From Selaginella moellendorffii (taxonomy: Eukaryota; Plantae; Lycopodiophyta): DNA of 64,000 nt. Shown in pieces: positions 2,122-35,274 of this stretch. The number at the start of each line of letters is the position of its first letter. Positions within the stretch are counted from its first letter, which is position 1. Position numbers and translations under genes: made by a program. Under the pieces are notes generated by a model. It was not told where the DNA came from. It searched no databases and saw only the letters and a list, made by a program, of their open reading frames with translations. Where the stretch lies: positions 5,358,360-5,422,359 of the forward strand of contig NW_003314261.1 of assembly GCF_000143415.4 (NCBI RefSeq). The letters are read 5' to 3'.

Positions 2122-2149
2122 TGCACTACTTACTCTCGAAGTGGAGCAC

Positions 2150-4804: not shown

Positions 4805-5001
4805 TCAGTGACAATGGCCTCCCTTAGGAGAAAAACTCAATGCTCGAGAAGAAAGTTCTTGCCTCGGATTTGAGCGAAATCTTTCTCTCGGGTCTGCTCA
4901 GGCACCCAAGTTAGTACAAATGGAAAAGCAAAACTCGGGAGGATTACCTCTCAATAAAACTTCTGCGAGGAGTCGACTTTGGACGTGAGAGCGTAGCGCT
5001 C

Positions 5002-5925
5002 TCACGTCACAGATCCCGTAGCCGCGGCTTTTGCTGCTTTCATCTTTCGCAATCTCTCTTGCCACGAATCTTTTTGCATTGCAATGACCTACATTATGCG
5101 TGAGCACAGGAATAGGCAATGAAAAACACAAACCTCTTCACTCAGAAGATCACTCGCCTTCTTCTCGTGATTCTTCTCGACGTGAGAACTTGGGGCTTGT
5201 TGTTCCTCCTCTTTTGGAACCGATCCGGAGCCAAACATAGCAGCGTCGTGAGCAGCCTCGGTCCGCTTCTCCCTTGTGAGCTGTGGCGAATTCACGAGTA
5301 AACACTTCTGGCTCGATAAACTCTCGTCCATACCTGGCTAGAGTATGAAAGATACGATCCAGCAGTGTTCCTTAGCGAAGAAGTATCGTCCGGACCAGCA
5401 CCTACATGAAGCAAAAACATTTTCTAGCGAGTATAGCATCACAAGAGAGAGTGCTTACTGCTACTTCTGGGATTGGAGTCTTCTTCCTCCTCGTCCAAAG
5501 GAGCACTCTTATCAAAATCAAAGCGCTCCCAGTTCTTGGTGTCTTTGTCTTTGGCCGCTAAAAAACGAAAGAACTCTCTTTAGAGAGTTTTTATCAAAGA
5601 TGAAACTAGAAAGCACGAGAAGCACACCTGTTTGGGAGAGCTGGAAGTTCATCCTTGCCTTCACTCTTTCAGCTGGAGTCTAGACAAACAAACAAAAAAA
5701 AAACAAAAAACGAAGGAATTCATCCAAAACATTTTAATACCGTCAACATACCATTCGATCGTAGTCTGGAATGAGCTCTTCGCTTCTCGAGGCTTTCCCA
5801 GATCTGGAACGCTTGGCATTCTCCGGGGGGCTCTTGCTCCTCCTGCTGGACTTCTTGCCGCCGCGATCTGGTTTGCCAGCGCCGGCAAATCCCACTCCCG
5901 CCCTGGACGATCGTCCGCGCTCCAT
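5002..5925 (-). CDS. Conserved plant protein of unknown function with an Arg/Ser/Lys-rich N-terminus, multi-exon
   Basis: Spliced reading MERGRSS...IPDYDRM / TPAERVKARMNFQLSQT / WERFDFDKSAPLDEEE / EAAHDAAMFG / VIAMQKDSWQERLRKMK...VT*. Exons are flanked by GT-AG. Confidence 0.65.
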
Positions 5926-12116: not shown

Positions 12117-13537
12117 ATGAAGATGAAAATGGACGACTTTCAAGTGAAAATCACCGAGGTACATCTTGTCTCGCCTGCAGATCCCACAGAGAGGTGTCAG
12201 CTCCCCTTCACAACATTCGATCTAATGCAAAAGAGGGACTCCATGCCATACCTTCAAAGAGTAGCGTTCTATGAATCCACAGGTAAAGACGCAGATCTCC
12301 TCGTCCGCCACATGAAGGAGGGCCTCGCCAAAGTTTTGGTGGACTTCTATCCCTTTGCCGGAAGGATAAGTTTCTCAGGAGGTGGCATGCCGGAGCTGGA
12401 TTGCAACGACCATGGCGTCGAGCTGAGCGTGGCCGAGGCCAATGCGTCACTGGAAGAGCTGGACACCTCTCAGTACTCACCGCTGTTTAAGAAGCTCATA
12501 CTGCGTGGGAACTACGAAGAGACCACCATGACCGGCACAGCACCACTCTTCGCTGCTCAGGTACCGTAGAGTTTTCCTTCTTTTTCCTGGGCACAGCTCT
12601 CAAGTATTCTTGGTGGATCTGTTCTTGGTGGACCTCCCAGGTGACTAAGTTCAAGTGTGGAGCTGTGTCAGTCGCTTGGTCCTTCGATCACCTGGCAGTC
12701 GATGGCATCGCGATGATGCACTTCATCACCTCCTGGGCCGAGGCAAGCAGCGGCAAGCCGATCTCCAAGCCTCCAGTCCACGACCGCTACTTTGAGCGGA
12801 GGAACAAAGATCTGGCAGCCAAAGTTGATGATTCCGCTCCATTCCAGTACACCTTCGTGGATCCAACAGCTGGAGTGGAGTCCAGGATCTTCTCCTTCGA
12901 CGAAGACGAGGTGGAGAAGATGAAAAAACTCGTGCTCGAAGGAAACTCCGACCAGCAAGAGAACGGAGAACACGAGAGCTTCACCACCTACGAGGCCGCT
13001 GCGGCACACTTTTGGGTGGAGCTCTGCCGTGCTCGAGATCTTCCAAAGTCGCAGACGACGAGAGCCCAGATTGCCGTCAACTGCCGTCCAAAGATCGTGC
13101 CGCCGTTGCCACAGGAATACTTCGGCAACGTTGTTCTCCCCGGATTGGCGGTGTCCACCATCGGCGAGCTCACGGTACCCGGCAGCAAGGCGGTGGCGGC
13201 CAGGCTGCTCAAGAAATCCATCAGGAGCTTTGGAATGGAGGAGATCCGGTCGCAAATCCAGAGCTACCACGAAAACTACCGCAACAAAAATCCAATGGCG
13301 CAGGGGCTGACCGATGGAGTGGACATCTTCTTTGGGAGCTCGTTGCGGCACCCTCTGTACGAGGTGGATTTCGGATGGGACAAACCTGTGGCGGTGCGCC
13401 ATGGACGATTCCTATGGGACGGCTTCTGCTTCTTCGATCCAAGCCCTAGGGGCGGGAGGAGCATGGACATCACCGTACATTTGCTGCCTCCAATCATGGC
13501 CAAATTCGCTACCACAATCAAAATGCTAGAACCCTAA
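12117..13537 (+). CDS. BAHD acyltransferase, tandem copy 2; intron 12561-12640
   Basis: LAKVLVDFYPFAGR, HLAVD, EYFGN, DFGWD. Same intron position as copy 1. Confidence 0.93.
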
Positions 13538-13825
13538 AATGGTACTTTTATAATTTCACGTTTTATTTTTTAAGAGTGAGTACATATAATATAGAAATGT
13601 GCTTAAAAACCCTAGTTTATATACAAGAGTGAGTAATTCAAATTGAAACTAATCTAATGGTTATTAAAATCTTATTATACTAATATTAGTATACGACATT
13701 GTACTATAAGCAACTAAATGGAACGACTTGAGAGATATCCATGGGATTCAAATATAGAAGGAAAGGGCCCATGAACAAAAGTGCACCCCTTTTTTTAATT
13801 GGTTAAGGGTCTTGGGATACTTGGG

Positions 13826-13880
13826 GTTAAGCGTCTTTGGGTTTGAATAGTACTGGGCTGGGTGACATCCCGAGAAGTCC
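13826..13880 (+). promoter_or_regulatory. 5S-derived Pol III internal promoter (A-box to C-box) in the Cassandra 5' LTR; second copy at 23194-23248
   Basis: GTTAAGCGTCTTTGGGTTTGAATAGTACTGGGCTGGGTGACATCCCGAGAAGTCC versus the recalled plant 5S GTTAAGCGTGCTTGGGCGAGAGTAGTACTAGGATGGGTGACCTCCTGGGAAGTCC, 44/55 identical by hand count. Confidence 0.8.
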
Positions 13881-13979
13881 AAACTCAGGAGTTTACATTT
13901 GGTATCAGAGGGGTCTCAGGTCCAACTCTATTGGTTGGATAAGGGAATCACACCATATGTTGATTGACATTTGGCTGGT

Positions 13980-14155
13980 CCAGTTTGCTCCAACTGGGCT
14001 CGACCCAAGGGGTAGTGTCGCGAATGTGACTTCAGGTATCGAAAGTTACTTGTCGGCCAGTCCTTAAGCCAGTTTGCTCCAACTGGGCTCGACCCGAGGG
14101 GTAGTGTCGCGAATGTGACTTCAGGTATCGAAAGTTACTTGTCGGCTAGTCTTTA
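13980..14155. repeat. 89-bp tandem duplication spanning the Cassandra/LARD junction
   Basis: ccagtttgctccaactgggctcgaccc(a/g)agg-ggtag-tgtcgcgaatgtgacttcagg... occurs twice, with LTR starts at 14016 and 14105. Confidence 0.92.
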
Positions 14156-16354
14156 TGAACACTCTTACCTTACTGCCACGATGGCAGAAGGTCGGTATTG
14201 CTAGACTTGTTATTAGTCTCCACCTAAGCTAGTTGAGAAACTGGTCATCACATGTGCACTTAGACCGGAAGGGCACTAAGGAAGAAAATCCTAAGTTGTC
14301 ATTTAGTCAAGCAGACTTGACACGGTGATGAGAAACTCATGATGTTGGCTTGCACTTGCTAGTGTTGGGAATCCCCGCGATATTGAGCTTGGTCCCTCAA
14401 TATCGCTAGATGATAGCTTACCGTGTCTGCCAAACACCCTCGCTATCATGCCCTTTGAGTTGGTCTCATTTCGGTCTCAAATGTTATTTATAGAAAGTGT
14501 CCAGATTTGCTCATTTGGCATATCTACGGAATGTAGAGATCGGCTTGAACACAATGGTGTTTGTCCCGTGTCCAAATTCACAATCTAGGGACATTCCATA
14601 TTTATTAAGTTTTAAACTTATCCCAGAGACTAACTCCTGATACTAAGGGAGGTTTGGGGTGAAAGCCCAAAGCATGTGTTCCTCAAAGGGGGGGGGGGGG
14701 GGGGTATAGGAGGTTCTAAATGTATAATAGGGATAGTGGGTAGGTTGGGCATGGCCGACCAACTTGAGGCGTAGTCTAGCTCCTACTTATGTGCCTGTCT
14801 TTGTTCTGTGTTTGGTTTGGGTCTAAGCCCAAGTTCCATTCCATGCTAGCTGGTGGAGTACCCATGTCCTCACGTTAGGCCACCGATATGCCAAAATAGT
14901 GCCAGACTCCATTTAGCTCCGTTTTGCGTGCTGGTCCTGGCATTAGGATGCTGGTTGCTCTAGGACTGTTCCAAGTTGCTCCGGGCTCCTGTCCCTTCAC
15001 TCCTTGGGCTATATGCTCGGGAGTTGCTCCGTGGTTTGGTTCCATCACTCCTTGGCTCCATGCTTGGGAGTTTTGCACTGTTCCTTCGTTCAAGTGGCCC
15101 AAGGCCCTGAACCTCGGGTTCCACACCACGTTCCTTTGGACACGTGGCATATGACACGTGGCATCTGTCACGTGGCACAAAGAGGGTTTAGGTTCTGCTT
15201 CGTGGTGTTATCCTATGGTAAATCACCATAGGATAAAACCACGTGCGCTACAGTTGGTATCAGAGAATGAGTCTCGGCGAGAACTATCCAATGAGATTGG
15301 GCAACTAGTCTCGTTGCATACGCAGAGATGAAAACGATGATCCGAGTGGATACACGTTTGGGTGCAAAGGGTTCGCAATTAGTTCCTTGGGTATGGATAT
15401 TGTTACTTTGTTGTACCTTATGATGTGAGCTTGCGCTTGGGCTCATAGGATGGTTTGGAGATGTTTCGTTTGCACGAGTTTGAGCTTGGGCTCGTGAGTG
15501 AGGCACATTAGCAACTCGAGGTTACACTTTGAGTTGGCAGGATTAATGTTAGCTTATCGATGGTTCCGTTGATTCCATGAGTTGTTCCATGTACCATGGG
15601 TGAAAGTAAACTTTCCCTAGGTTTGCTATGAGTGGCAAATAGGTTGGTCCGTAGCTGTTTAGCACAGTATTAGTGGATCCTTCCTAGGCATGAATACAAG
15701 TGGATCAATCAAAACTATAGGGATTAGTCTATTGATTCAGGTAATCATTGCCGTGCTCTCTCATAAACCTTTCTTGGATTGGACTGAAGGCAGTGCGAAA
15801 GCAAGCTTGAGGTTTGGTCAAAGATAAGACCGAAAAGAGAGTTGTCAGAGACGAAGGATTAAACACGTAAATCATTTTCTCTTCTTGGAGAGATGATTTG
15901 CAACGAGGTGTGATTCATTGCTTGTGTTCATGGTTGTGAGACACAAAATCCCTAGGCCCCAAAGTGGAGCCGGAAAGGGTGCCACGTGGTAGTGGCTGAA
16001 GCGAGAGCCAAACGAGCGTAACACGTTTGGACCAAAAGCTCCGACTTGAAAAGTCAAGAGTGGGAGTGGAACTCCCAAAGAAGTGCTCGAGGAACGAGCA
16101 CGGAGCGAGCAAAAAGTGAGGCTCCAAAAAGGGACCCAAAAGGACCAACACATGACACGTGGAAGTGTCCGAGATGGACTCGAGTTGGAGTCCGAAGTGG
16201 AGTCCGAGATGGACTCGAGTTGGAGTCCGAAGTGGAGTCCGAGATGGACCCGAGTTGGAGTCCGAAGTGGAGTCCGAGATGGACCCGAGATGGAGCCCGA
16301 GATGGAGTCCGAGATGGAGTCCGAGATGGAGTCCGAAGTCGAGACCGAGACCGG

Positions 16355-16386
<32 letters not shown>

Positions 16387-19300
16387 TCGGGACCGAGAAC
16401 GAGACCGAGGCCGAGGCCGAGGCCGAGACCGAGCCCGAGCCCGAGCCCGAGTCCGAGTTCGAGTCCGAGTCCGAGTCCGAGTCCGAGTCCGAGTCCGAGT
16501 TCAAGTCTGAGAGGGTGAAAGCCCAAAGCGTTCATCTCCCAGACCCTGGGGGGTTTGGTGAGCTCCAAAAGTATAGTAGGGGGAGGACTGCAGTGGAGCC
16601 AGTTTGGCCAGGAAAGGCCAGTTTGGCCCAGGAAGGCCGGACCCAGTGTTGGGTGATGAGCTGCCCACTGGGAAGTCCAAGACTAGAGTGAACACGGACC
16701 GACAAGCGGGGTAGCTTGGTGAAGTGTTCAAGAGCCGGCTCTAGTTCCCCCGGGAGATCGACTGGCTGATGCTCCCAGTCCAAGTGTGGGTGGCACTACC
16801 TACTTGGATACTTGGTGTGGCTCACCGGAACCCGCTCTAAGCCCATGGCTAGAGCACCCAAGGGCAGAAGGCGAGGAGAGTACCCAGGTGGCTCGCGTAA
16901 GGCCACGGTGTCCCGAAATGTTGTCCCAAAGGCCCAGACTGTGGAAAGGAAGAGGAGCAGTCCTCTGGGGTAGTGACCAAGGACACAGTCGTGTGGTGAG
17001 GAAGTCCCAGAGGACTGTGGGACTTAGTGGTCGGGCCTATGGGTCTCGATCCAGTGGCAGTGTTGGCAAACACGACCAGGGGCAGAAAGGGACTTAGTGG
17101 GGACTGACAGAGGGATATTGGGGAAGGCTATTCCCCTTGTCGGTGGGCATCCTAAGGATGCTAAGGAGTGGATCTGAGATGACCACTCACGGATGGTTTG
17201 CCTAGTCTTGGAGAGCCAAGACTGTGATGCAAGTGGTATTGGACTACCAATGTGGCAAAGGTGATTGGGCATGGCCTTAGCGTAACGGGCTGCTATGTCG
17301 GTGGTACCTTTGAGTGTTGGTCATGGGATCGGACACGTGGAGCACTTGGACCAAGTGCAAATGTTGAGTGGCATGGATGCCATTCTCGGGGCTAGCAAGT
17401 CCCAAGTCCTGGATTGGACTTATGGAGGTTGTGAATGAGACTCCTCCAAGTGGTCAGAAGTGTGGTTAAGTGACTAAAGTAGAATGGAAAATTTAGTCGC
17501 TTACAACGGTATGCAATCAAGAGTCCCTATCTTGATGCATATTGGACGTGATAGTCTTACAAGTGGTGAGTCGTGGGATGGATAGTAGTGAAGTGCTATA
17601 CCATTTTATCGAGGCTTACTATTGTAAGACTTGGGTTGCAATGCTCAATTCTTTTCCGGGGAAGCTTGCTATTGCTCCTTGAGTAGCTTGGTGTTGGATT
17701 GGTTTTGAGTTTGGTCGGAAAGAGAGTGGCATGAGCTTGTCCATGTTGTAAACAAAAGTTAGTGGTGTTAGGTGTTGTAAATCTCTATTGATGGGGTGTG
17801 GCATTTATGTTGCATTTTGTCGAATCGAGTTGGCACTTGATATTCACTTAAACCTTTGCAGTAGTGACATGGGCATTGCTCATAGTGTTGCTTGATTGAT
17901 GATCAAGTCATTGTGATTCATATCATATCCATGTGATAATGAGCAATGTGTTTACGAAGTAGTTTGGGTAAATGATGATCAATCCCAAAGTGGTTGATGG
18001 AGAAGCTAGTCTACTTGCACGAAGTAACATTGTAGTAGCTTTGACTGGATTCTCAATGGTGGTCTATTATGCTAAGCTTAAGTTAGTACCTTGCTTACTT
18101 GAGTTTGCCCATAAAGGTGTTGGAAAAGGGTTATAGCATTCACTTGCTATGACTTGTCAGTTGATTCGTTAGCACTTGGAGTAAATTGTTGGATGGAGAA
18201 GATGTGTAGTTGGGGCATTGACATCACTAGCACTTGTGTTAGTGGAAGTGGCATTGTTATTTTAAGTGATGAGGAATTTTCCTTGGACCTTGATTTTCCA
18301 TGTCATTTTTCTTATTAGTGTTTTGGTTTCACATTTGATCTTGAAGGTGATTGAAGAAGAGTGTTAGTGCAATGTGGATATCTGAAGATGTGGTCTTCGT
18401 GATCAAGCCTTGGATGTTCCATTTTGCACTTTGCGGATGTCGGTGTTGGATATCGGTTAGATGGGCAAAAATGTTCGATGCTTAAACATGCTATTGGGTC
18501 ATAAGAATTTGTGTTGAGGTGAACCTATGTGAAGTTGTGTTGAGGTGAACCTATGTGAAGTTGTAGTAAAAGGAAGTTGGTTGAGTTTTGAAAGTTTGCA
18601 TTCCTGGACTAAGAGTCATTCTTTCTCTAGGATGGAAAATTTTCCACAAATTTTCTTAGACTTTTCCAATGGTTGATCTATTAATCACTTTGATCAAAAA
18701 CCATTTTGTTTTCATAAGCCAATACAAACTAGTGAAGGGGTTGGAGTTGACTTCAGTTGGCTTAAACTTTAGTAGATAGTTTGTATGATGCGGCCCAAAA
18801 GGGATGCTAACTTTTGGGGCTAAGGCAATTGAGTTGGATAGAGTCTGGAGTTGGTATAGAAAAGTGGCTGTTGCACTTTTCTAAAAAGGGTGATCCTTGT
18901 GCCTTTTTTATAGCATTTTTCTTGGTGGCAGGTTGCACCTTGCATTTCGTTAGACTCTATGAGAGTAGTGAGCTCTCACTGATCTTGACTTGGTCTTGGT
19001 GGCCCTACGCCTTGGTTAAGGATGGTGATGTCCAATTTGGTTGTTTAAGGTTAAGATGTTAGTACCCGTACTATAGCTTTGTCTATGAGGAGGTTGTGTA
19101 CCGATATGAGTCCATCTCATGATCTTCATTTTAGTTTTGACTGAGTGTTGATCACATAACTAGCCTCTTCAAGGCATGCTCAGAGCTATTGACTAAATGC
19201 ATTAGTGAGCTTATTGCGGTTGAGTTGGATTCGAGTGGTCATTTAGTTTATGCTTGTCTATGAACTTTTATCTCATACTTAGGGTATTGTGTTCATGTTG

Positions 19301-22300
19301 GACAAGTATGTAACTCGATGATATGAGTTAGTGTTTGAGTCTAGTGAAGGCAAATTGAAGGGTGATTGTTAGTTGATTTGCGACTAGTGATTACTTGTAG
19401 ACTTTATCAAAAGACGGTTGATACTTGTTTCGCTTGATGATGATTTAGCAGTGATGGGCTTGCTTTACCGGATAATGTTGTGGAGGATTGTGTCGTTAGA
19501 CTTACATGGTTTTTTCCATGTTGACATGTCGACTCTACCTCTGTCAATATCATTTGGTTACATCTAGTCCGTAGTGTTGGATTTCATTGAGTCTTGGACG
19601 TAGTGAATCACTCCATGATGATCTGTTCTCTATTACTAAGTATTGTTGGAGGATTGGTCTCGGGTACTAAGTAAAGTATATTTGACTTAGGTTAGCTTAG
19701 TTGCTAGGAAGTTTTGAGTGGTGACTCACTCGTGCTTTCTTCTAGCTTTGTTATGGTGTTGATGGCATTGAAGTGATGCTTTGTCATTGACATAGTTGAT
19801 ATTGAGATTCAAATGAAATGAAATGTCTCTCCGTAGGATTGATAATGAGTTTCATTAGTCTCGATGCAAATAGTGTTGATGATTTGGTTATGGCTTTGTG
19901 TTATTGGCATTCATGCATTTGCTAGTTAGCAACTATGTTGATGTTCAAATGCACTAAGTGGCAAGTTTGAGTTAGTTGTGTTTTAGACGAGATTATTTAG
20001 TAGAGGTTGAGCTTTAGCTCTTCCTTGAAAAGTGATTTAGTCGTAGACTATGCTAACTCTACAAGCGGAGGAGTTAGTGATCGATGTTAGAATGTTTGAA
20101 TCCTTATTGGATTTGAGTTGGAATATATTGATCATTGATGATTCTTCTTGTGCTTGTTATGAAGTGAGTTACGTCTTACTATAGATGGATTCAGGAGGAT
20201 CGTTTAATGATCACTTGTTGAGCATAACTCCATGATGTTTAGCTTTTGGATTGATGCAGAAATGCTCTTCATTAGCTTTGGCATTATGAAGTTTAGCTTA
20301 TGGATGTGTTGAGGAGGATATTATGGGTTATACCATGATTTCTTCTTTAGCATTGAAGTTAGTTCATGCAAGACTTATGATCATTATAGACAAAGACTTA
20401 GCTATAGGCTTCTTCAAGCTTTTGGTTCTCTGCGTTTTTATGCTCAATGTTCCATTTGTTAGAAGTTGTTGGGGGAAGGCATTTTGGCTTGTTAGTTTCG
20501 ATGTTGAAGTTGGCTTTTGCATCTAGCAGTCATTGGTGATGATTGACTATCATCTAAGCTAGTTGATTATCCTTGTCAAAGGTTTTGCTTGATTATCATT
20601 GATTTAGAATGATTTGCCATTTTTCGGGATGGTGGATTCCTTCTTCGATAATGATTATGCATTTCTCTATTGATGGGTTGATTGATGATCGTTCCTGATG
20701 ATTAGTTGTTTTTTTTGATGGCTTATAGCTTTTCGCAATACCACATGTTCTTTGTGGTTTGCTCTGGATTGATCTCTTGGGTTTGAGCCATCAGTAGGAC
20801 GTTGTTGACACTTGCTTAGACAACTTGAGTTCCTTGGTATTGTTGACTGGGATCTATTCAGATTGGTTGGTGCAATGGTTGGCATGACTAAGTGTTTGTT
20901 GGTTTTACCACATTCATTATGTTTTGTTGATTGTTGCTCGAGTTAGTTCTGATAGATTAGGATGTTATCTCCTTTAGGTGATACATTCGCGAGCTTTGTG
21001 CTTGTCAATCAATGATACTTAGTGTTCTTTGAGTTATCTTTCGTAAGTTGTTTAGTATACTATCTACAATCTTCGATAGTTAAGTTTTCTCATTGAGTGT
21101 ACTTGATGATACTTGCTATTGAATTTTGTTGGATGGTGATTCCTATGTTTATAAAAATAATGATCTTGGTGGTTCTTATACTGTAATACTAGTTTATCAG
21201 ATGATAACTTACTTGGAATACTTTTGTGTTCTAATCTAAGCTTTATTTACTGATAATTAAATCTCTAAGATATCATTGTCTATGACTTTGATATAGTCCA
21301 TATATTAATCTTTGAGTTTGGGCCAGTATAGGCAGACTGGCTTTGGCACTTCGTGTGCATGTTGAAATCTCTAGTCATGGGGTAACTACTGTCGACTGGT
21401 CATATAACCCGCCTCTCTGTCGATGTTCCTTATTTTATTGAAAGGGCATGATCATGTAAACAACTCTTCTTGCCTGTTTACAGTAGTCTATCTAAACCTT
21501 ACCGACAGGTTTGGTTTCTTTGCTTAGGAGGGTTGGGGCCTTTGGCTTCTCTCTCTATGTCCCTACGGGTAGGGCATATCACACTTTTGTAGCTAGGTGA
21601 CACCCAGAGCAGCAAGGGTGGCTGACTCCGTTGGTCATTTCCTTGTTGGCGATGGCCGGAAGGTGTTTGAGATGGTAGCGCATCCGCGTTAGACAAAGAG
21701 GTTACCCCTAACTCATTTAAGTTGGTGCATTTCTTACATAGTGTGAGTACCGTGAACTTTTTCTGGAGTTGTTTCCTTGGCGGTATTCTAGACTCGAGTA
21801 TGCATCGATGAGGACGTCGATCCCTAGGGGGGGAGAGTGTCGCGAATGTGACTTCAGGTATCGAAAGTTACTTGTCGGCCAGTCCTTACAAACACTCTTA
21901 CCTTACTGCCACGATGGCAGAAGGTCGGTATTGCTGGACTCGTTATTAGTCTCCACCTAAGCTAGTTGAGAAACTGGTCATCACATGTGCACTTAGACCG
22001 GAAGGGCACTAAGGAAGAAAATCCTAAGTTGTCATTTAGTCAAGTAGACTTGACACGGTGATGAGAAACTCATGATGTTGGCTTGCACTTGCTAGTGTTG
22101 GGAATCCCCGCGATATTGAGCTTGGTCCCTCAATATCGCTAGATGATAGCTTACCGTGTCTGCCAAACACCCTCGCTATCATGCCCTTTGAGTTGGTCTC
22201 ATTTCGGTCTCAAATGTTATTTATAGAAAGTGTCCAGATTTGCTCATTTGGCATATCTACGGAATGTAGAGATCGGCTTGAACACAATGGTGTTCGTCCC

Positions 22301-22979
22301 GTGTCCAAATTCACAATTTAGGGACATTCCATATTTAGTAAGTTTTAAACTTATCCCAGAGACTAACTCCTGATACTAAGGGAGGCTTGGGGTGAAAGCC
22401 CAAAGCGTGTGTTCCTCAAGGGGGTATAGGGGGTTCCAAATGTATAATAGGGATAGTGGGTAGGTCAGGCATGGCCGACCAACCTGAGGCATAGTCTAGC
22501 TCCCGCTTGCGTGCCTGTCTTTGTTCTGCGTCCGGCTTGGGTCTAAGCCCAAGTTCCATTCCATGCTAGCTGGTGGAGTACCCATGTCCTCACATTAGGC
22601 CACCGGTATGCCGAAATAGCACCAGACTCCATTTGGCTCCGTTTTGCGTGCTGGTCCTGGCATTAGGATGCTGGTTGCTCCAGGACTGTTCCAGTCGCTC
22701 GGGGCTCCTGTCCCTTCGCTCCTTGGGCTGTATGCTCGAGAGTTGCTCCGTGGTTTGGTTCCATCACTCCTTGGCTCCATGCTTGGGAGTTTGGCACCGT
22801 TCTTTCGTTCAAGTGGCCCAAGGCCCTAAACCTCGAATTCCACACCACGTTCCTTTGGACACGTGGCATATGACATGTGGCATCTGTCACGTGGCACAAA
22901 GAGGGTTTAGGTTCCGCTTCGTGGTGTTATCCTATGGTAAATCACCATAGGATAAAGGGTCAAAACCACGTGCGCTACA
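14105..22979 (+). mobile_element. Large non-autonomous LTR retrotransposon (LARD-like), ~8.9 kb
   Basis: Highly similar LTRs 14105-15252 and 21838-22979 (TG...CA). PBS tggtatcagag at ~15255. PPT agggggggagag directly before the 3' LTR. Perfect 5-bp TSD GGTAG (14100-14104, 22980-22984). No gag/pol ORF in 6.6 kb. Confidence 0.93.
16167..16506. repeat. Hierarchical tandem array: 3x35-bp units, then 12-mers, then (CCGAGN)n hexamers
   Basis: gtccgagatggac(t/c)cgagttggagtccgaagtgga at 16167, 16202 and 16237, followed by ccgaga/ccgagg/ccgagc/ccgagt runs. Confidence 0.95.
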
Positions 22980-24422
22980 GGTAGGGTGTCAAGAGAGTGG
23001 GGCTCTCGGGAGAGCTACGGCTCTCAGCTTCTGTTCACAAGGGTGTGAACTTGCAGGGAAGCGTGGTAGATTGTAAACAACCAAAGGGAACGACTTGAAA
23101 GATGATCCATGGGGTTCAAATATAGAGGGAAAGGGCCCATGAACAAGAGTGCACCCCCTTTTCCAATTAGTCAAGGGTCTTGGGATATTTGGGGTTAAGT
23201 GTCTTTGAGTTTGAATAGTACTGGGCTAGGTGACCTCCTAGGAAGTCCAAACTCAGAAGCTTACATATACATCATCCCCTACTCTCGAAATGATGGAAAA
23301 CCATTGTGGATTGGTCGGAATTTAAAAAAACATCAAGAAGAGGCATTAGTAGATTTATAGATGGTGTTAGTTGTTTTTTATTTCTTTGTACGATGCATTT
23401 TAGCCGTTACACATGTATAATTTCTAGAGGATTAACCTATTAGATATTATGCCGAACCTTATAACTTGCAGTCCTATTTGCCACAACACCCAATACAATC
23501 CTTTTCACTCAATAAGGAGCTTTTTAGATAAACAATGTACTATAAAATTAAAAAACAAACTAACATCAAGTTATCCACTTTGTACTTTTGTAAGTGGACA
23601 ATGATGGGAATTGTAATGTTATTATTATCCCACTTGTAAGTAGCCTAGGTTTTTGGTAGACTTTACTTAGATAAGTGGAAAAATGCTCATCAAATATTAA
23701 TCCTATAACTTAACATTAGCAACTTATGGCAATTGCAAAAATAAATCTAACTTCATTGGTAGTATTAGATCATGACCATATAAGAGTTTATATGGTGAAG
23801 AACCAATAGAATCTTACACCCCTGTAACATATGCATATAAAAAAGATGGCAAATAACCATCTTAATCCAAATGTTAAAAGTTCATATACTTCATGATCAT
23901 CCCTTTGAAGGAAAGTCTAAATGAGCTATTCCACCAAAGTGTCTAATTGTGGATGATAAACATTTGTGAAAGTGTGGTTTATCCCCAACAGAGATGTCAA
24001 AACATGAAATGCCTTAACCATAAATATAAAACTATTATCTGACAAAATCCACTCCAGAAACACCACTCAATGAAGGAGGAAGTATCCAATATCAATTGTA
24101 GACGCGCTAGCAAGAGCACCAACTTCCACCTAACAAATCAAGTAATCAAAAACAATAATGACATACTCATTACTAGCAATCCTTCGTGGAAAAGGTTTTA
24201 TTAGATCAAATGTCACTAACTCAAACGGATAGGAAACTATAATTAATTCCAACTGTCCTTCTGCAGCATAAAGGGGACTATTGCAAGCTTGGCACCAAAT
24301 GCAATTACGCACATACCAGATAATATTATATTGCATCTCCAGCCAATAAAAAGACCTATGTAACTTTTTGGTTACACGACAATGTCCTATATATCCACCT
24401 AAAATAGGAGAATTATAGTAGG

Positions 24423-24962
24423 TGTAGCGCATGTGATCATGGGATGAGATTTGGATATACTGTCACCGTGGATCCTTGGAACCTTGAGGGATAAATGGGG
24501 ATAAAATAGCCACTAAGAGCTCTCTCATCAAGCAATTGCCCCTTTTCTAGTTGGTTTAAGGGGAGAGAGATAAGGTGTGTTACAGTTGGTATCGGAGCAA
24601 ATAGCACAGGTTTGATTCCCATTGATACTTAAAAGTATAATATACCCTTGAGCAAGGTATATTCCTACCCCTAAATTTGAAATCGTACGTATTGGGCATC
24701 CATGTGGACGTCCTTCCTCTTGTGTGGAGTATCCACGGACGAATGTATCCATCGTGGGACTGCGGTACGGGTGGATGACTAGTTGCCTCACATGGAATAG
24801 CTAGTCTACACAATAGAAAGATTGGTAGATTGAGTGTGGAAATGGAGGTGTTGGTTCCCCTTGGATTAGTAGGGGTTGTTAGTCAATAGCCACTAAGCTC
24901 TCTCATCAAGCAATTGCCCCTTTTCCAATTGGCTTAAGGGGAGAGAGATAAGGTGCGCTACA
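24423..24962 (+). mobile_element. 540-bp TRIM-like element inserted in the integrase of the decayed gypsy
   Basis: TSD GTAGG on both sides. Termini tgtagcgca...tgcgctaca (9-bp inverted). PBS tggtatcggagc at ~24587. An ~80-bp direct repeat (aatagccactaag...ctaca) at ~24504-24584 and ~24885-24962. Confidence 0.82.
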
Positions 24963-27900
24963 GTAGGTGTGGAGAAAGTATGGAATAAAGATTGAAGGCA
25001 TCACCAGTCATAAATAATCATCAAGATTTGTTCCCACAAAATAAAAAAGACCGTCCTCAAAGTAATATTGTGAATATAAATGCCAAAATGGCAAATCATT
25101 AGCAAGTGATGTAGAATTCTCAAACCCATAATGAAGCCTTCAAATCCACAACTCAATCTTTTAAGCTTTACAAACCTCGTCAAAAGAAGGTAAATCATGT
25201 TTTGCACCTTGTGAATATTAAATATTAAGTACAGCTGCTACCAATGGCATAGAATCCTTGTCTAAAAAATCACAAATGTTAGAATAATAAGCTCATAAAA
25301 AAACATAAGAAAAGAGTAAAGAAGGAAGAGGAGCTCGAAAAAGGGCATTAACATTAGCCATAAAACTCCCTAAGGGATGAACAACATCAAAATTATATAT
25401 TTTAAGGTTTAAAGCCTATCGAGTAGTAAGACCAATAAAGTTTTTCTACTTCAATAATGAAGTAATTACAATATAATCCCCTTTTAGTAATGTCCAATAT
25501 GTATGAAATTTCTCGAAACCCCAAGTTGTTGCTAAACACTCCTTCTCTATCGTGGAGTAATTCACCTTTGTTGGTTGTAATGTACATTTGATATATGCAA
25601 TGGGATGGCATTGACTAAACACACTTGCATCAACACACCTCCAAGACTGATATCAAAAGCATCCATAAGTAAAATGAAAGCTCAAGTGTAATCTAGATAT
25701 ACCAAAACATAAGGAGTTGTCAATACCTTTTTGACATGCATAAACACCCACTCACAGTCCACAGACTAGATGAAAAATGACATTAACGACTTCATTAATG
25801 TCTGAATTGGTGTAATGCGATCAAAAAAATGATCAACAAAATGATCAAAATATTGCACCTTGCCCAAAAAGTACTGCATATTATTCACACATTTCATAGT
25901 AGGGAACTTTAGAACATACATAAGCTTATCATGATCAACTTACAAGCCCTTATAAGAAATACAGTATCTAGTTATATTGTGTCCTTGGACCCAAATATGC
26001 ACTTTGACCACTTCAACTTTAAACCAACTTCTCATAACTAATCTAACACCTTATGAATATTACAGATGTATTCTCCTATGTCCCCTTTGAGTGGATCAAG
26101 ACATTATAGATGAAGTTAGCAATCATCTCTGGCATGTTATAAAAAACCTCATCTAACATTCATTAGAAAGTCACTAGAACATTATTCAAACCAAACGACA
26201 TCACCAAGAACTTGTACAAACTAAATGATATAAAAAGTAGTGTTAGGAATATCTTTTTTGGCCATTAACACTTGCCAATACCTAGAAACAAGATCTAACT
26301 TAGTGAACTAATGACTTCTCTCCAAACGATCCAAGAGATCAGCAATATGAGGAAGAGGGTACACATCCAAGATCATCACTTTATTTAATGGATGATATTC
26401 AATGTAAAAATAAATACTCCTATTAGGCTTTATCACAAGATGAGGTTCACATGCCCAAAGATTTTACAACTTTTGAATAACACCCTTTTTTAACATCTCC
26501 TTGACATTTATATGTAAAATTTTGACTTCTTTTGGTAACCAATGATGAATAGGAACATTGATTGAACTAGCATCCCCAATTGGAATAGGATGATATGTTG
26601 CATTCTTAGACCCAGATGAAAATCAAATTATAAGAGATTGATATACTCTTTCATAAACTAGTCAACCGTTATAACACAAAGACCGTCGGAAGGATTAGAA
26701 GAGGGAATGGAGGAACAAAATGGAAATATAAAACGAAATAATGGGGAAACAAAAGTGATGGAAGTAGAGGTAAAAACAAAGGGATAGAGAAGAACAAAAG
26801 TGAAAAGTATGGAGAAAATATAAAAAAGTATAAGACAAGGGGAAAAAGCCTCAAAGTTATATTTGGCATAATTGCGTTGCAATCAATCCATACCAAGGAT
26901 GAAGTCAAAAGTATTGCTCACAATGACTAAAGCTCAAACTTGAAATCGCCCATACACACAACTAAGTGTACTTCATCCACTTTTTTTATTTCACACATTT
27001 TTTAAAAATGCTATGGTTATGTAGTTATATATATAATTTCTTCCTCTTGTACCATCTTGTGAAAGCATTGTGTGATTAAGCATGGATACTTAGATCCAAA
27101 AAGAATTCTCAAATTAGAGTTTTACAAAAAAGGAAAAGAGTGTGGAGTATACATTGCTCTTTAGAAGTTTTGTTTAACTAATAAATCTTTCAACAATGTT
27201 TATTATTCCACAATAAATACTATAGAGCTCTTTATTTTTGGAAAGGATTAGCATATGTTTGCATTGTCTAGAGCTCTCATTAAGAAGATAAAAAGAAATG
27301 CCCTTAAGATCTAGAAAGCAAGTTGAGCTTAAAGGTCTATTTCTTCTTACCATTTGTTCTCTTTTGATTGATTTTTAATCTTGGTTTCCTTTTAGAGCAT
27401 AAGCTCAAATTCATGATAATATGTGGATTATAAAGTTTGATTTAAATATCTTATACCAAGGCTATTTATCCTTCATATTAAGAAATAATCTAAGGGTTTT
27501 TAGGGCACTAGACGACGATTAAAGATTGTAGCGATGAGAAGATTATGAACTAATTATGTATAAGGTAGTTTTATCTGCACCTAATTTGGAGTTTCTATGC
27601 CATTCAAGTTGTGAAAAGATGTAAAACCATATGGTTTTATTTATAATTTTTAGAAAACTTTTTTTATTATATATGAAACTCTTTTTTTTTAAGAAACTTT
27701 ATACACCACCACCTAGTGAACAAGAGGGATTTATTGAATAAAATATAGAGATTGAAAGTGAATTTGGGGAAGTTTCACCATTTTGGAGTGGTTATGAGAG
27801 GTTTATTGCTTAGAGCTGTTATAAAAGTATGGAATATTGAGGTGGAAAACTATATATAGTTTTATGCGGTTTTCAGTATAATTTTTATTTTTAAAAAGTT

Positions 27901-29039: not shown

Positions 29040-29333
<294 letters not shown>

Positions 29334-29357
29334 ATTTTATATTTATATATATTTTTT

Positions 29358-29457
29358 NNNNNNNNNNNNNNNNNNNNNNNNNNNNNNNNNNNNNNNNNNN
29401 NNNNNNNNNNNNNNNNNNNNNNNNNNNNNNNNNNNNNNNNNNNNNNNNNNNNNNNNN
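29358..29457. other. Assembly gap (100 N)
   Basis: Run of N. Confidence 0.99.
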
Positions 29458-30439
29458 TATATTATTTATATTAAAAACCACAAAGAACACTATAATGGTA
29501 TCATATTATACAATGAAACAATACACAAAACTAGATCAAGCAATATTTAAAAAACTATTACATAACCATTTGAAACCCTATACAAAGAAACTATATACAT
29601 AACTAGATCATATAGTTTAATCCTATATAGTGTAAAGTGTTATGTATGTTCTTTATTTTTTTATGAATAGCCATATGTTGTGGAGCACCAATATGATTAA
29701 GCCTCAGATATAATAGTAAAAATAGTGTTTCTGGATAAAGATAATAGAGGAACATATGCAACTTCAAACAATACACTCTTTAATCTACAAGAGTGTGATA
29801 TTTAAAAGGAAGTGAATGTAATGAAAAGAGCAAATATAAACACAGTGATAACAAAAAATTTAGATTTAACAAAAATCTACAATAAATTTAGATCTAAAGA
29901 AGAACAAAATAACTAAAACAAAAAGTACAATCTCAAACACTAGAGTAATACATTACTAGAAAACTTTGTCTTCTAAGGATAATATATAATACTCTTCACC
30001 TCTTTGAGATTTGGGAATAGGTATTTTAATTGGTTATATAAAAAAATGGATGAACTAAATTAAGTTTCAATTAGACAGTTAACTACTATAATTAATATAT
30101 TTTCTTTGTAGTATTATGTATGTTCCAAACCTTACTATATAATAATATTAAATAAATAGGTTTACTTAATTTCTTATAATAATATAACACAAATTTAACT
30201 GGGTTATGATTGAGACTTTAAGAATTTATATACTGTGAGTGCATGGAATATGGAAAGGGAATACAGAAATGTGCATATCAATTAACCCAAAAACCCTAGC
30301 TTATATACAGGAGCGAGTGGTCCGGATTGAAACCAATCCGACGGCTACCAAAATCCACTACGCTAATATTAGTATACGGCATCGTAGCCGTACACTTGGC
30401 CCTCACATCATCCCCTCCTCTCGGAATAATGGAAGGCCG

Positions 30440-33400
30440 TCAGGGTTCTCTTGTAGATGGGCCGGGATCTGGAGGAACGTCAGGAGGAGGCATCGGTGGA
30501 TCTGTAGACGGTATTAACTGCTCCTGATCCCTCTGTATGAAGCATTTTAACCGCTGCACATGCACAATCTCTGGAGGATCGGCCTGCTGAACGTCATGCC
30601 GAACCTCATAAACTTGTGGTCCAACTTGCCGCAACACCCGATACGGTCCTTTCCACTGCGCAAGGAGCCCCTTAGATAAACCACGTACCGTAAGATGGGG
30701 AAAACGGACTAACACCAAATCATCCACTTTGTACTCCGCTGGTGGACGATGATGGGAATTGTAGCGCCGTTGTTGTCCCACTTGTACGCGGCCTAAGTGT
30801 TCAGCAGACTCTGCTCGGACAAGTGGAAGAATGCTTGTCAAATATTGATCCCATGACCTAGCATCAGGAGCTCGTGGCAATCGCGAAGGTAAACCTAGCT
30901 CTGTTGGTAATATTGGATCATGACCATATAGAAGTTTATATGGTGAAGCACCAACAGAACTCTGCACCCCTGTGACATAAGCATACCGAAGAGACGGCAA
31001 ATAACCATCCCAATCCGAATGTTGAAAGTTCATATACTTCGCAATCATCCCTTTGAATGTCCGAACGAGCCGTTCCACCAGACTGTCTGATTGTGGATGA
31101 TAAGCACTCGTAAAAGTGTGGCGTATCCCCAACTGAGATGTCAAAACATGAAATACCTCAGCCATAAATGCAGGACCATTATCCGAAAGAATCCGTTCTG
31201 GACAAGAATGCTGGAACACCACTCGATTGAGGAGGAAGTATCCAACAGCAGTTGCAGAGGCACTAGCAAGAGCACCAAGTTCCACCCAATGAGTCAAGTA
31301 GTCAGAAGCAATAATAACATACTCATTACCAGCAGTCGATCGCAGAAAAGGTCCCATAAGATCAAATGCCACCAACTCAAACGGACGAGAAACTGCAATT
31401 GACTCCAACCGTCCTTCCGCAGCACAAGGGGGAGTATTACGAGCTTGGCACCAAACGCAGCTACGCACATACCGGATAATATCACGTCGCATCTCTGGCC
31501 AATAGAAAGATCTGCGCAACTTCTCGGTGACACGACGGTGTCCCATATGCCCACCTAGAATAGGAGAATCATGGTAGGCATGGAGAAACCGCGGAATAAA
31601 CACCGAAGGCACCACCAGCCGTAAATGAGCATCAGGATCCGTCCCCACAAAATAAAGAAGGCCATCTTCAAGGCGATATTGAGAATGTAAATGCCGAAAA
31701 GGCAAGTCATCAGCAAGTGATGCAAGATTCTCAAACCCATCTCGAAGCCTTCGAATCCACGGCTCAATCTTTTGAGCCTCATGAACCTCATCCAGAGAAG
31801 GTAGATTTTGCTCTACGCCCTGTGGACACTGAACGTCAAGGACAGCAACCGCCGACGGCACAAAATCCTCATCTAGAAAATCCACAGATGCTGGAACAAC
31901 AGGTTCGTCAGAAACATGAGAAGTGAGTGGAGAAGGAAGAGGAGCTCGAGAAAGGGCATCAGCATCAGCCATAGAACTCCCTGGGCGATGAACAACATCG
32001 AAATCATATATCTGAAGCTTCAAAGCCCATCGAGCCGTACGACCAACCAGGTTCTTCCGCTTCAATAATGAAGTAACAGCAGCATGGTCACCTTCAAGTA
32101 ACGTCCGAGAACCATGTAGATAGGCATGAAGTTTCTCGAAACCCCAGACTGCTGCTAAACACTCCTTCTCCGTCGTGGAGTAGTTCATCTCCGCTGGTTG
32201 TAATGTACGGCTTATGTATGCAATGGGATGGCGCTGACCAGGCACACTCGAGCTCTCTTGCATCAACACACCTCCAAGACCAATGTCAGAAGCATCCACG
32301 TGCAAAATAAAAGGTCGAGTGTAGTCAGGATATGCCAAAACCGGAGGAGTCGTCAATAGCTCTTTGAGATTCACGAACGCCCGCTCACAATCGGGAGACC
32401 AGATGAAAGATGACGTTGATGACTTTAGCAACGCTCGCAATGGTAAAGTGCGATCGGAAAGATGATCCACAAAACGACCGAGATACTGCACCTTACCCAA
32501 AAAGCGCTGCACATCATTCACACACTTCGGAGTAGGGAACTTTAGAACAGCCACAAGTTTTTCAGGATCAACTTGCAAACCCTCACGAGAAATACGGTAC
32601 CCAAGATAAGTTGTGTCCTTGGACCCAAACACGCACTTCGACCGCTTCAGCTTTAAACCAACGTCGCGTAGCCGATCCAACACTTTACAAACATCATGAA
32701 CATGCTCCTCCCACGTCCCCTCCGAGTGGATCAAGACATCATCAATGAAGTCAGCCGTCACCTCCGGCATATCGCAAAGAACCTCGTCCATCATTCGCTG
32801 AAAAGTTGCTGGAGCATTGTTCAAACCAAACGGCATCACCAAAAACTCGTACAAACCAAATGGTGTACGAAAAGTAGTCTTAAGAATATCATCTTCAGCC
32901 ATCGGTACTTGCCAATACCCAGAAGCAAGATCTAGTTTGGTGAACCAACGACTTCGCCCCAGACGATCCAAGAGATCAGCAGTGTGAGGAAGAGGGTACA
33001 CGTCTGAGATCGTCACTTCATTTAACGGACGATAATCGATGCAGAAATGAATACTCCCATCAGGCTTCGTCACAAGACGAGGTTCACATGCCAAAGGACT
33101 CCGTGACTTCCGAATAACACCCTTCTCCAACATCTCCTTGACGTTTGCACGTAAAATCTTGATCTCTTTGGGTGACCGACGACGAACAGGAACCTTGATT
33201 GGACGAGCATCCCCGGTTGGAATGGGATGACGTGTGGCAATCTTGGCCCCAGACGATAGGTCAAATTCAAAGAGATCAGAATACTCCTTCATGAGCTGGT
33301 CAATAGCTGCAACACAAAGATCATCGGAGGGATCGGAAAAGGGAAGAGCAGAACAAGATGGAAACACAAGAGGAAATAATAGGGGAACAAAAGTAATGGA

Positions 33401-33928
33401 AACAGAGGTAGAAGTAGAGGGACGAAGAGGTACGGAAGTGAGAGGAATGGATGAAACATAAGGAAGTATGAGACAAGGGGGAAAAGCCTCAAAGTCACAC
33501 TTGGCATGATTGTGCTGCAACTAATCCATACCAAGAATGAGGTCAAAAGCTTGACTCGGCATCACCCGCAACGACTGCAACTCAAGCTCGAGATCGCCCA
33601 CACGCACAACCAGGTCCGCCTCATCTCGTGCACATGCATGTGTACGGCCGTTGCCATAAAGAATGAAAACTGGATCCGCCGCACGACGCAAGTGTAGACG
33701 ACAACGTGTGGCAACAGGTCGAGCAATAGAAGATAAACTCGAACATGTATCAACCAACACGGAGAGAAGAATAGGAGACCTCTTGTTATAAAAACGAGCT
33801 TGGAAAGTAAACACTGGATGAACCGGTGCCGAGTGAACCCCTTGATGATACTCCCGAAAGAAAGATGGAGGGGTCACTAACTTATTCGCGCAAGGTCCCT
33901 CCATTACTCGCGCGACTCCTCGTTTCCC
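30440..33928 (-). pseudogene. pol: Pol (PR-RT-RNase H-IN) in the -1 frame relative to gag, with one premature TAG at 33521-33523
   Basis: LVDTCSS (protease), LILGMD*L, FCIDYRPLN, LDLASGYWQ, MPFGLNNAPATFQ, FIDD, VDASDIGLG, HHCC, FDLMGP/SDNG/LVER, WKGPYRV. Confidence 0.92.
33865..33928 (-). other. Programmed -1 ribosomal frameshift signal: slippery heptamer plus H-type pseudoknot
   Basis: Minus strand reads G GGA AAC gaggag TCGCGCGAG ta ATGGAGGG ac CTTGCGCGA ataagttagtgac CCCTCCAT. Confidence 0.85.
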
Positions 33929-34836
33929 GAATGCACCTCGGTATCTAAACCTTCCACCGCAGCAGCACCAACGGGACGTTGCTGACGCCAAGGTCTCCAC
34001 CCAGGAAATGGAGGTCGCCAATCCGGAAAGCGCCGACAACGCCGATAAGTATGACCAACTTCATCACACGCCCAGCAACGAATGTCACGGCCACGACCAC
34101 GTCCTCGCCCTTGTCCTTGGACTCGAGTAACAGCAGCATCAACCTCCATGGGAACAGGACCATCACTCATAGGAAGTGGAGCTGAAGGACGTGTAGCAAG
34201 AAGTGGAAGAGGCGACATCTCATAACGTTGTGCCAAGCGAAGAGCATCGTCAAGAGTGGCAGGAGCAAGTGCATGCACAAGTCCGACAAGATCTTGACGA
34301 AGTGCTGGCCACAGCATTCTTAGCTTGATCCGCTCCGACATATTTGGCTCCGCACGAAGCAAAAGACTTTGGAAACGAACGCCAAATTGCATCACCGACT
34401 CAGATGGCCCTTGGCGAAGACGATGCAATTGTTGGAAGGCATCATCACAATCGTCGGCGTGTCCAAAGGCGCGTTTGAAGACGTCCGGAAGAACACTCCA
34501 ATCGCCACGAGTAGCTGCGCTCAATCCATTGTACCACTGCAATGCCGTCCCTTGAAGACATGTGGGGAACTCACGCAAATGTCGAGCATCATCCCAAGAA
34601 TGATATGTGGCAATCACCGTGAAGTGATCGAACCAATGGTACACATCATCCCCAGGATTCCCACGAAAGAACTCCGGCCGAACGCAAGGATTGGCACCAA
34701 AAGCAGGAGGAGTTGTACCATGTGCCGTGAACGCCGCCATCAACTGAGTTTGGTTGTTCAATTGCAGGCGCATAGCATCAAGCAATTGAACCACCTGCTG
34801 CTCTAGAGTCAAAGGAGGAGATTGCAGATCAGCCAT
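33904..34836 (-). CDS. gag: Retrotransposon Gag (capsid plus CCHC zinc knuckle)
   Basis: PEFFRG...WFDHF, LQGTALQWY, LRQGPSESVMQF, CWACDEVGHTYRRC. Confidence 0.93.
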   Translation of the reverse strand: MADLQSPPLTLEQQVVQLLDAMRLQLNNQTQLMAAFTAHGTTPPAFGANPCVRPEFFRGNPGDDVYHWFDHFTVIATYHSWDDARHLREFPTCLQGTALQWYNGLSAATRGDWSVLPDVFKRAFGHADDCDDAFQQLHRLRQGPSESVMQFGVRFQSLLLRAEPNMSERIKLRMLWPALRQDLVGLVHALAPATLDDALRLAQRYEMSPLPLLATRPSAPLPMSDGPVPMEVDAAVTRVQGQGRGRGRGRDIRCWACDEVGHTYRRCRRFPDWRPPFPGWRPWRQQRPVGAAAVEGLDTEVHSGNEESRE

Positions 34837-35240
34837 GAAAATGAATGAGAAAGAAAGAGCAAAAGAAGAGAAATGACAAAAAGCTGGAAAGAAATGGTAG
34901 ATCTAGACAATGCAAAAAGCTAGATCTAAACCAAAATCCTGAAAGGAAAGAACAAAAGAAAGGAAATGGAAAAAGCTAGATCTAGACAATGCAAAAGCTA
35001 GATCTAAACCGAAATCCCAAATCCAAGCACTCCCCAAGGACAATCAAAGGTGCCCCTCAACTCCACCAATGTGAGTGCATGGAATATGGAAAGGGAATAC
35101 AGAAATGTGCATATCAATTAACCCAAAAACCCTAGTTTATATACAGGAGCGAGTGGTCCGGATTGAAACCAATCCAATGGCTACCAAAATCCACTACGCT
35201 AATATTAGTATACGGCATCGTAGCCGTACACTTGGCCCTC

Positions 35241-35274
<34 letters not shown>

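What the first reader, a model, noticed from the sequence alone, without database searches (positions are those of the whole stretch)
33865..33928. Complete retrovirus-style -1 frameshift cassette (slippery site plus pseudoknot) in a plant Ty3/gypsy element
Seen: gag ends ...VHSGNEESRE* and pol overlaps it in the -1 frame. The heptamer G_GGA_AAC (33928-33922) sits in the correct X_XXY_YYZ phase. A 6-nt spacer follows, then stem 1 (UCGCGCGAG/CUUGCGCGA, 9 bp with one G-U). Its loop AUGGAGGG pairs perfectly with the downstream CCCUCCAU (stem 2, 8 bp), giving an H-type pseudoknot. A -1 slip yields ...SGNRGV or ...SGKRGVARVMEGP into protease. Known: this architecture drives -1 frameshifting in retroviruses and many RNA viruses, whereas many plant gypsy elements use one gag-pol ORF or splicing. 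Inference: this is a functional recoding signal that sets the Gag:Pol ratio in this lineage, and I am not aware of it being described.
Basis: partly seen in the sequence, partly recalled or inferred. Interest (0 to 1): 0.85.

Follow-up and report, generated by a model that had tools for sequence, protein, structure and literature searches.

The report
Viral-style frameshift signal in spikemoss retrotransposon
A high-copy jumping gene of the spikemoss Selaginella has, where its two overlapping genes meet, the same slippery sequence and predicted RNA knot that retroviruses use, so its ribosomes likely slip back one base to make the enzyme polyprotein, a mechanism well known in animal and viral elements but little documented in plant retrotransposons.

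Summary
On the minus strand G_GGA_AAC (33928-33922) is in gag phase. A 6-nt spacer and a 9-bp plus 8-bp H-type pseudoknot follow. It is the only such heptamer in the 157-nt gag/pol overlap, and 5 of 3000 shuffles match the stems. The host is Selaginella moellendorffii. The 5,010-bp element fits the Selgy lineage, whose gag/pol overlap REXdb already lists (17 elements, 65%) without direction or signal. In thousands of contig pieces of family copies, no listed indel fuses the frames. Stem 1 varies only at CpG sites, and covariation could not be shown. A published element of a second lineage in the same plant (SM-Tcn1) carries G_GGA_AAC, a 6-nt spacer and an 11+7-bp pseudoknot (read by eye), unremarked in its paper. 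The best explanation is programmed -1 frameshifting (0.85). This copy's pol is broken. The architecture is textbook (retroviruses, PEG10). The plant-retrotransposon setting was not found in ten literature searches. Nothing was assayed.

The parts
35070..35243 (-). 5' LTR, 174 bp, TG...CA
   Evidence: 3 differences from the 3' LTR
35058..35068 (-). primer-binding site, resembles tRNA-Ala 3' end
   Evidence: tRNA end recalled, not tested against a tRNA sequence
33904..34836 (-). gag ORF, 310 aa, with CCHC-like knuckle; stop UAA 33906-33904
   Evidence: (PF03732, E 1.3e-11)
33922..33928 (-). slippery heptamer G_GGA_AAC in gag phase
33916..33921 (-). 6-nt spacer
33907..33915 (-). pseudoknot stem 1, 5' arm
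   Evidence: hairpin z -2.33
33902..33906 (-). UAAUG: gag stop (loop 1) overlapping a pol-frame AUG (start of stem 2)
   Evidence: position 33903 varies in 18% (X1) and 8% (X2) of depth
33897..33904 (-). pseudoknot stem 2, 5' arm
   Evidence: z -3.09
33886..33894 (-). pseudoknot stem 1, 3' arm
33873..33885 (-). loop 3, 13 nt, holds the commonest non-CpG variants of the cassette
33865..33872 (-). pseudoknot stem 2, 3' arm
30440..33928 (-). pol in the -1 frame: protease, RT, RNase H, integrase, no chromodomain; broken in this copy by a stop at 33523-33521, with an atypical protease active-site motif near 33745
30408..30422 (-). polypurine tract
30234..30407 (-). 3' LTR, 174 bp

Best explanation
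The gag and pol genes of this Selaginella Ty3/gypsy element overlap in the -1 frame, and the in-phase G_GGA_AAC with the predicted pseudoknot 6 nt downstream likely makes a minority of ribosomes slip back one base and produce Gag-Pol. Shown: frames, phase, spacer, complementary stems. Inferred: a ribosome decoding GGA-AAC meets stem 1 at the mRNA entry channel and pauses. Both tRNAs re-pair one base back, and translation continues as ...SGN-RGVARVMEGP into protease, RT, RNase H and integrase. Ribosomes that do not slip melt the knot and stop five codons later at the UAA in loop 1, giving the 310-aa Gag. This would set the excess of Gag over Pol and tie Pol to Gag for packaging. This copy cannot make full Pol because of a stop in the protease region, so the signal would matter in intact relatives or did so in the past.
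For: It is the only heptamer in the overlap and is in phase. G_GGA_AAC is among the most shift-prone heptamers, and 5-9 nt is the usual spacer (PMC5009743 passages). 5 of 3000 shuffles reach the stem score. A rough pseudoknot estimate is about -24 kcal/mol against -16.9 nested, using recalled penalty terms. Family copies: 11,781, 11,321 and 5,557 contig pieces laid (X1, X2, X6; one sample). The 6 listed indels are all one-base losses, at most 0.11% of depth in X1, and none fuses gag to pol. Within 33877-33914 the gag stop and all 7 non-CpG stem-1 bases assessed stay under 3% variation, while loop 3 holds 35% and 20% variants in X1. REXdb finds overlapping GAG:o:PROT in 17 Selgy elements, 65%. 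SM-Tcn1, another lineage in the same species, has in-phase G_GGA_AAC, a 6-nt spacer, 11-bp and 7-bp stems and no overlapping AUG (by eye). 31 of 93 Gag-length homologues end in Asn (KN, EN, GN, LN) against a 7% background, which suits a shift site just before the gag stop in the wider clade (inference, no DNA). IMG/VR locus L127 has GGGAAAA with 9+6-bp stems at a -1 junction.
Against: There is no assay. No compensatory base change was seen. One stem-2 base (33903) changes in 18% (X1) and 8% (X2) of depth, and its partner 33866 could not be assessed, so the outer two pairs may be lost in a subfamily. A 6-bp core would remain (about -21 kcal/mol). All 10 CpG bases of stem 1 vary by 3-17%; I read this as methylation decay after insertion, but it does weaken the stem in those copies. 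The heptamer, spacer and stem-2 3' arm were checked only among the 40 of 212 variant rows shown. The region also codes for protein, so low variation is not specific to structure. The copy data come essentially from one sample.
Confidence: 0.85

Rival explanations
1. Termination-reinitiation: ribosomes stop at the gag UAA and restart at the overlapping AUG (UAAUG), making Pol as a separate protein, as in the non-LTR element SART1 and some viruses.
For: UAAUG lies exactly at 33906-33902. The AUG is in the pol frame about 51 codons before the protease motif, with G at -3 and +4. UAAUG coupling with a downstream structure is reported for SART1 (PMC10275272 passages). The variant at 33903 gives ACG, a near-cognate start (own knowledge).
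Against: It leaves the in-phase heptamer and the 6-nt spacer unexplained. The stop and AUG sit inside the knot, which a terminating ribosome would already have melted (inference). There is no UGGGA motif in the 106 nt upstream; the only near match, CGGGA, overlaps the heptamer. The AUG is lost in 8-18% of depth. SM-Tcn1 has the same cassette without an overlapping AUG.
Confidence: 0.07
2. Splicing or a separate transcript joins or frees pol, as in Ogre, BARE1 or EVD, and the knot has another role such as packaging.
For: Splicing is the documented route in several plant elements.
Against: There is no non-coding spacer between gag and pol of the Ogre or Bianca kind, because the frames overlap. 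The heptamer and spacer would be coincidence.
Confidence: 0.04
3. The frame break is decay in one copy and the stems are chance.
For: This copy is defective elsewhere. Two other places in the element reach a similar stem count.
Against: No frame-fusing indel appears among thousands of family pieces. The gag stop is under 3% variable. The overlap is the prevailing Selgy organisation. 5 of 3000 shuffles match.
Confidence: 0.04

Closest known systems
Selgy lineage of REXdb (non-chromovirus Ty3/gypsy of Selaginella moellendorffii; PMC6317226)
   Same: Host, length (5,010 bp against a mean of 5,044), no chromodomain or extra ORF, tRNA-Ala-like PBS, about 4-bp TSD, gag overlapping PROT-RT-RH-INT in another frame.
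   Different: In the parts I could read, REXdb records only 'different but overlapping frames', with no direction, slippery site or pseudoknot. No Selgy reference sequence was available for a tree.
PEG10/Edr -1 frameshift signal (mammalian gene derived from a Ty3/gypsy element)
   Same: The same heptamer GGGAAAC followed by a compact H-type pseudoknot between gag and pol.
   Different: A domesticated, experimentally proven animal gene. Here it is a multicopy plant transposon, with no Rfam match to any frameshift family.
Retroviral, coronaviral and polerovirus -1 frameshift signals
   Same: X_XXY_YYZ heptamer, 5-9-nt spacer, pseudoknot. Plant ribosomes perform such shifts on plant virus RNA.
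   Different: Those are viruses; this lies in a nuclear LTR retrotransposon, with the gag stop inside loop 1.
SM-Tcn1 (Tcn1 chromovirus of S. moellendorffii; PMC2864245)
   Same: In-phase G_GGA_AAC, 6-nt spacer, H-type knot, gag stop in the loop (by eye).
   Different: A different lineage with a chromodomain. Its stems are 11 and 7 bp with a 33-nt loop 3 and unrelated sequence, and there is no overlapping AUG. Its paper has 0 hits for frameshift or pseudoknot in the main text.
SART1 UAAUG translational coupling
   Same: UAAUG stop/start overlap near an RNA structure.
   Different: SART1 is a non-LTR element with its structure downstream of the stop. Here the stop lies inside the structure and a shift site precedes it.

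Membership tests
Pseudoknot-stimulated -1 ribosomal frameshift signal | X_XXY_YYZ heptamer in the zero frame inside an overlap with a -1 ORF | tested here: met
Pseudoknot-stimulated -1 ribosomal frameshift signal | spacer of 5-9 nt | tested here: met
   6 nt; range
Pseudoknot-stimulated -1 ribosomal frameshift signal | two stems able to form an H-type pseudoknot | tested here: met
   9+8 bp, loops 2/2/13, 5 of 3000 shuffles; predicted, not probed
Pseudoknot-stimulated -1 ribosomal frameshift signal | compensatory covariation of the stems among relatives | tested here: inconclusive
   no compensatory change seen; copies too close and dominated by CpG decay; partner of the one stem-2 variant not assessable
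Pseudoknot-stimulated -1 ribosomal frameshift signal | measured frameshifting that depends on heptamer and stems | not testable with these tools
   needs a reporter assay
Ty3/gypsy LTR retrotransposon | LTRs, PBS, PPT and domain order GAG-PROT-RT-RH-INT | tested here: met
Selgy lineage | host Selaginella moellendorffii | tested here: met
   neighbouring receptor kinase 99% identical to an S. moellendorffii protein, next hit 51%
Selgy lineage | about 5 kb, no chromodomain, no archaeal RNase H, no extra ORF, overlapping gag and pol | tested here: met
Selgy lineage | tRNA-Ala PBS and 4-bp TSD | tested here: inconclusive
   PBS resembles a recalled tRNA-Ala end; flanks match at 3 of 4 bases beside a TA run
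Selgy lineage | RT-RH-INT phylogeny groups with Selgy references | not testable with these tools
   REXdb FASTA too large to read; the tree of 48 RTs only places it apart from the named plant and algal RTs included
TURBS-type termination-reinitiation | overlapping stop and start codons | tested here: met
   UAAUG
TURBS-type termination-reinitiation | upstream motif complementary to 18S rRNA (UGGGA, recalled) | tested here: not met
   none in 106 nt upstream

The most novel reading that the evidence does not exclude
Both Ty3/gypsy lineages that REXdb lists with overlapping gag and pol, Selgy and Tcn1, use classical pseudoknot-driven -1 frameshifting at the same G_GGA_AAC site with unrelated knots. 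This would be an undescribed, lineage-wide expression strategy of non-seed-plant retrotransposons, and the first defined -1 frameshift signals in plant nuclear retrotransposons.
Probability: 0.55. Interest if true: 0.58.

Novelty: new member of a known kind. Interest (0 to 1): 0.46.

Why it matters
How plant LTR retrotransposons keep Gag in excess of Pol is only partly known. A 2016 review reports a 2003 survey that found just two plant element types with separate frames, both +1, and later papers stress single ORFs and splicing. This gives a 64-nt, directly testable candidate for -1 frameshifting in a high-copy plant element, plus a second in another lineage. It explains an overlap that REXdb recorded without a mechanism. 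The mechanism itself is textbook, so the gain is in distribution and evolution, not in kind.

Tried and rejected
No whole genome was held, so intact copies could not be aligned. A pattern scan of metagenome contigs returned 119 stretches that I took for chance matches and did not examine one by one. A longer pattern gave 1 hit in a bacterial MAG, not examined, and 0 in viral contigs. The word-based Gag search found nothing; the exhaustive one found no protein above 40% identity among the 150 listed. A single-sequence RT search of viral contigs found nothing. An alignment search gave 72 loci, 9 of them Ty3/gypsy-like: 4 single-frame, 2 with a -1 overlap (L127 with a cassette, L124 without a canonical heptamer) and 3 with an unresolved junction. 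An integrase search added only a longer stretch of one of the same contigs. Rfam gave 2 chance matches, E 6.4 and 8.7. No RNA holder was listed. One RNA run gave 2 reads of 9.2 million, neither on the cassette, and a guessed RNA run gave none; this says nothing about splicing or expression. The second lay lost the heptamer and stem-2 3' arm to an apparent end filter: rows span only 33877-33914, and the 69% variant at 33930 is missing. A test for Gly-Asn near Gag C-termini gave 20 of 93 against 68 of 1312 background windows, but these overlap the terminal-Asn signal. Supplements of a Selaginella repeat paper held none of six short motifs. The 2003 survey was not held. Three look-ups of earlier findings returned nothing. 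The decayed second copy in the window lacks the junction.

Full report
Observation. The cassette is as described. On the minus strand gag (34836-33904, 310 aa) ends VHSGNEESRE*, and pol is open in the -1 frame from 34060. G_GGA_AAC at 33928-33922 is in gag phase and is the only XXXYYYZ heptamer in the 157-nt overlap. After 6 nt come stem 1 (9 bp, one G-U), a 2-nt loop, stem 2 (8 bp), a 2-nt link and a 13-nt loop 3. It ranks first among 499 heptamers on both strands of the window in my stem-count scan, and 5 of 3000 dinucleotide shuffles reach its score. Each stem alone is a good hairpin (z -2.33 and -3.09). The two compete in a nested model (pair probabilities about 0.35 and 0.6), so the nested fold is ordinary (z -0.11). 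Summing stacks with recalled pseudoknot penalties gives about -24 kcal/mol against -16.9 nested (rough). Two other sites in the element reach similar stem counts without a heptamer, so the weight rests on position and phase as much as on the stems.

The element. It spans 35243-30234 (5,010 bp), with 174-bp LTRs differing at 3 positions, a PBS, a PPT and flanks matching at 3 of 4 bases. Pfam gives Gag, aspartyl protease, RT, RNase H and integrase, with no chromodomain. A neighbouring receptor kinase is 99% identical to a Selaginella moellendorffii protein, and the next hit is 51%. REXdb (PMC6317226; passages, section 13 and Additional file 5 read; files 1 and 3 too large to read) describes Selgy as 114 elements with a mean of 5,044 bp, 4-bp TSD, tRNA-Ala PBS and 'GAG:o:PROT-RT-RH-INT 17 (65%)', where :o: means different but overlapping frames. 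Tcn1 has the same arrangement in 149 (60%). The element fits Selgy on these features. I could not test it against Selgy references. In a tree of 48 RT domains it pairs with one unnamed Pol of 61% identity (100/98). The pair sits in a poorly resolved group of animal and unnamed elements, apart from the Closterium, Chara, Vitis and Gossypium rows; no Athila, Tat, Phygy or Selgy reference was in the tree. This copy is defective: pol has a stop at 33523-33521, and the protease motif is atypical.

Family copies. No assembly was held, so I laid public contigs. Three runs of one sample gave 11,781, 11,321 and 5,557 pieces on 33600-34200. The 6 indels listed are one-base losses, at most 0.11% of depth in X1 and up to about 6% in X2. 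None is the one-base gain that would fuse gag and pol. Of 212 variant rows 40 were shown. None lies in the heptamer, spacer, stem 1 or the stem-2 3' arm, while five frequent variants (38-93% in X1) lie in the 30 nt just upstream. A narrower lay assessed 33877-33914 at 3%. The gag stop, both short loops and all 7 non-CpG stem-1 bases there are below threshold. The 10 CpG bases of stem 1 vary by 3-17%, which I read as methylation decay. Loop 3 varies at 33879 (35% in X1) and 33881 (20%). Against my reading, 33903 in stem 2 varies in 18% (X1) and 8% (X2), and its partner could not be seen. A 6-bp stem 2 would remain. No compensatory change was observed, and the data are essentially one sample; a second sample gave 3 pieces, one identical to the window.

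A second lineage. The supplement of PMC2864245 (read whole) gives SM-Tcn1, a chromovirus of the same species, with gag at 595-1563 and pol at 1473-5186, which is the -1 frame. By eye, G_GGA_AAC lies at 1539-1545 in gag phase. After 6 nt a perfect 11-bp stem follows (1552-1562 with 1573-1583), whose loop pairs over 7 bp with 1617-1623; loops are 2, 1 and 33 nt, and the gag stop lies in the loop. This was not checked by computation. The paper's main text has no occurrence of frameshift or pseudoknot. Outside plants, 31 of 93 Gag homologues of 250-460 aa (from 150 listed) end in Asn, against 5-11 of 93 at the preceding seven positions. I infer shift sites ending in AAC just before the stop, without DNA to confirm. 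One of nine Ty3/gypsy loci from IMG/VR shows a heptamer and knot at a -1 junction.

Mechanism. Programmed -1 frameshifting (0.85): the knot would hold the ribosome on GGA-AAC, a minority would slip back and read into protease, and the rest would stop five codons on. I give it 0.07. It does not explain the heptamer, the structure encloses the stop, the AUG is lost in part of the family, and SM-Tcn1 has none. Splicing and chance get 0.04 each; RNA data were too thin to test splicing.

What is known. G_GGA_AAC with an H-type knot is proven for PEG10, itself derived from Ty3/gypsy (PMC13622457 passages; PMC5009743 passages). The same review reports that 28 of 51 animal retroelements had pol in -1, while the two plant types with separate frames were +1 (the 2003 original was not held). 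Passages of PMC12786077, PMC5580714 and PMC3350952 describe no -1 signal in a plant element. Ten full-text searches listed no paper that describes this signal in Selgy or another plant retrotransposon; most hits were seen only as listings. Subscription papers and the unread REXdb files may hold a mention.

Verdict. Real, most likely functional in intact relatives, textbook in mechanism, and apparently undescribed in this setting. New member of a known kind; interest 0.46.

Noticed in passing
window 34658-34591 (-): A long hairpin inside gag, -30.8 kcal/mol, z -3.5, 0 of 200 shuffles (the stretch was picked after a scan). It could be a packaging or other RNA signal.
   Followed up: partly
PMC2864245 supplement, SM-Tcn1 1539-1623: In-phase G_GGA_AAC, 6-nt spacer and an 11+7-bp pseudoknot at the gag/pol overlap of a published Selaginella chromovirus, unremarked in the paper's main text (by eye).
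   Followed up: partly
window 23269-26962 (-): A decayed relative of the element, 76% identical, lacking gag and the junction.
   Followed up: partly
window 13570-23266: The 3' LTR of the decayed copy seems split by nested inserts. One has long direct repeats (about 14030-15237 and 21800-22956, 92-97% identical), an internal tandem array at 16132-16341, and no match to this element's Gag or Pol. Possibly a non-autonomous element.
   Followed up: no
window 41660-38264 (-): Two-exon LRR receptor kinase gene, 99% identical to S. moellendorffii MDIS1-interacting receptor-like kinase 1.
   Followed up: partly
proteins P0124-P0273: A third of Gag-length homologues (31 of 93) end in Asn, suggesting a widespread shift-site-then-stop design in this part of Ty3/gypsy.
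   Followed up: partly
L127:2435-2510: IMG/VR Ty3/gypsy locus with GGGAAAA, a 10-nt spacer and 9+6-bp stems at a -1 gag/pol overlap.
   Followed up: partly
window 12491-13537 (+): A 348-codon open frame that looks like an acyltransferase fragment (by eye), directly beside the transposon cluster.
   Followed up: no
window 29040-29460: A long TA microsatellite beside an assembly gap of N; the element's 5' end also abuts a TA run at 35244.
   Followed up: no
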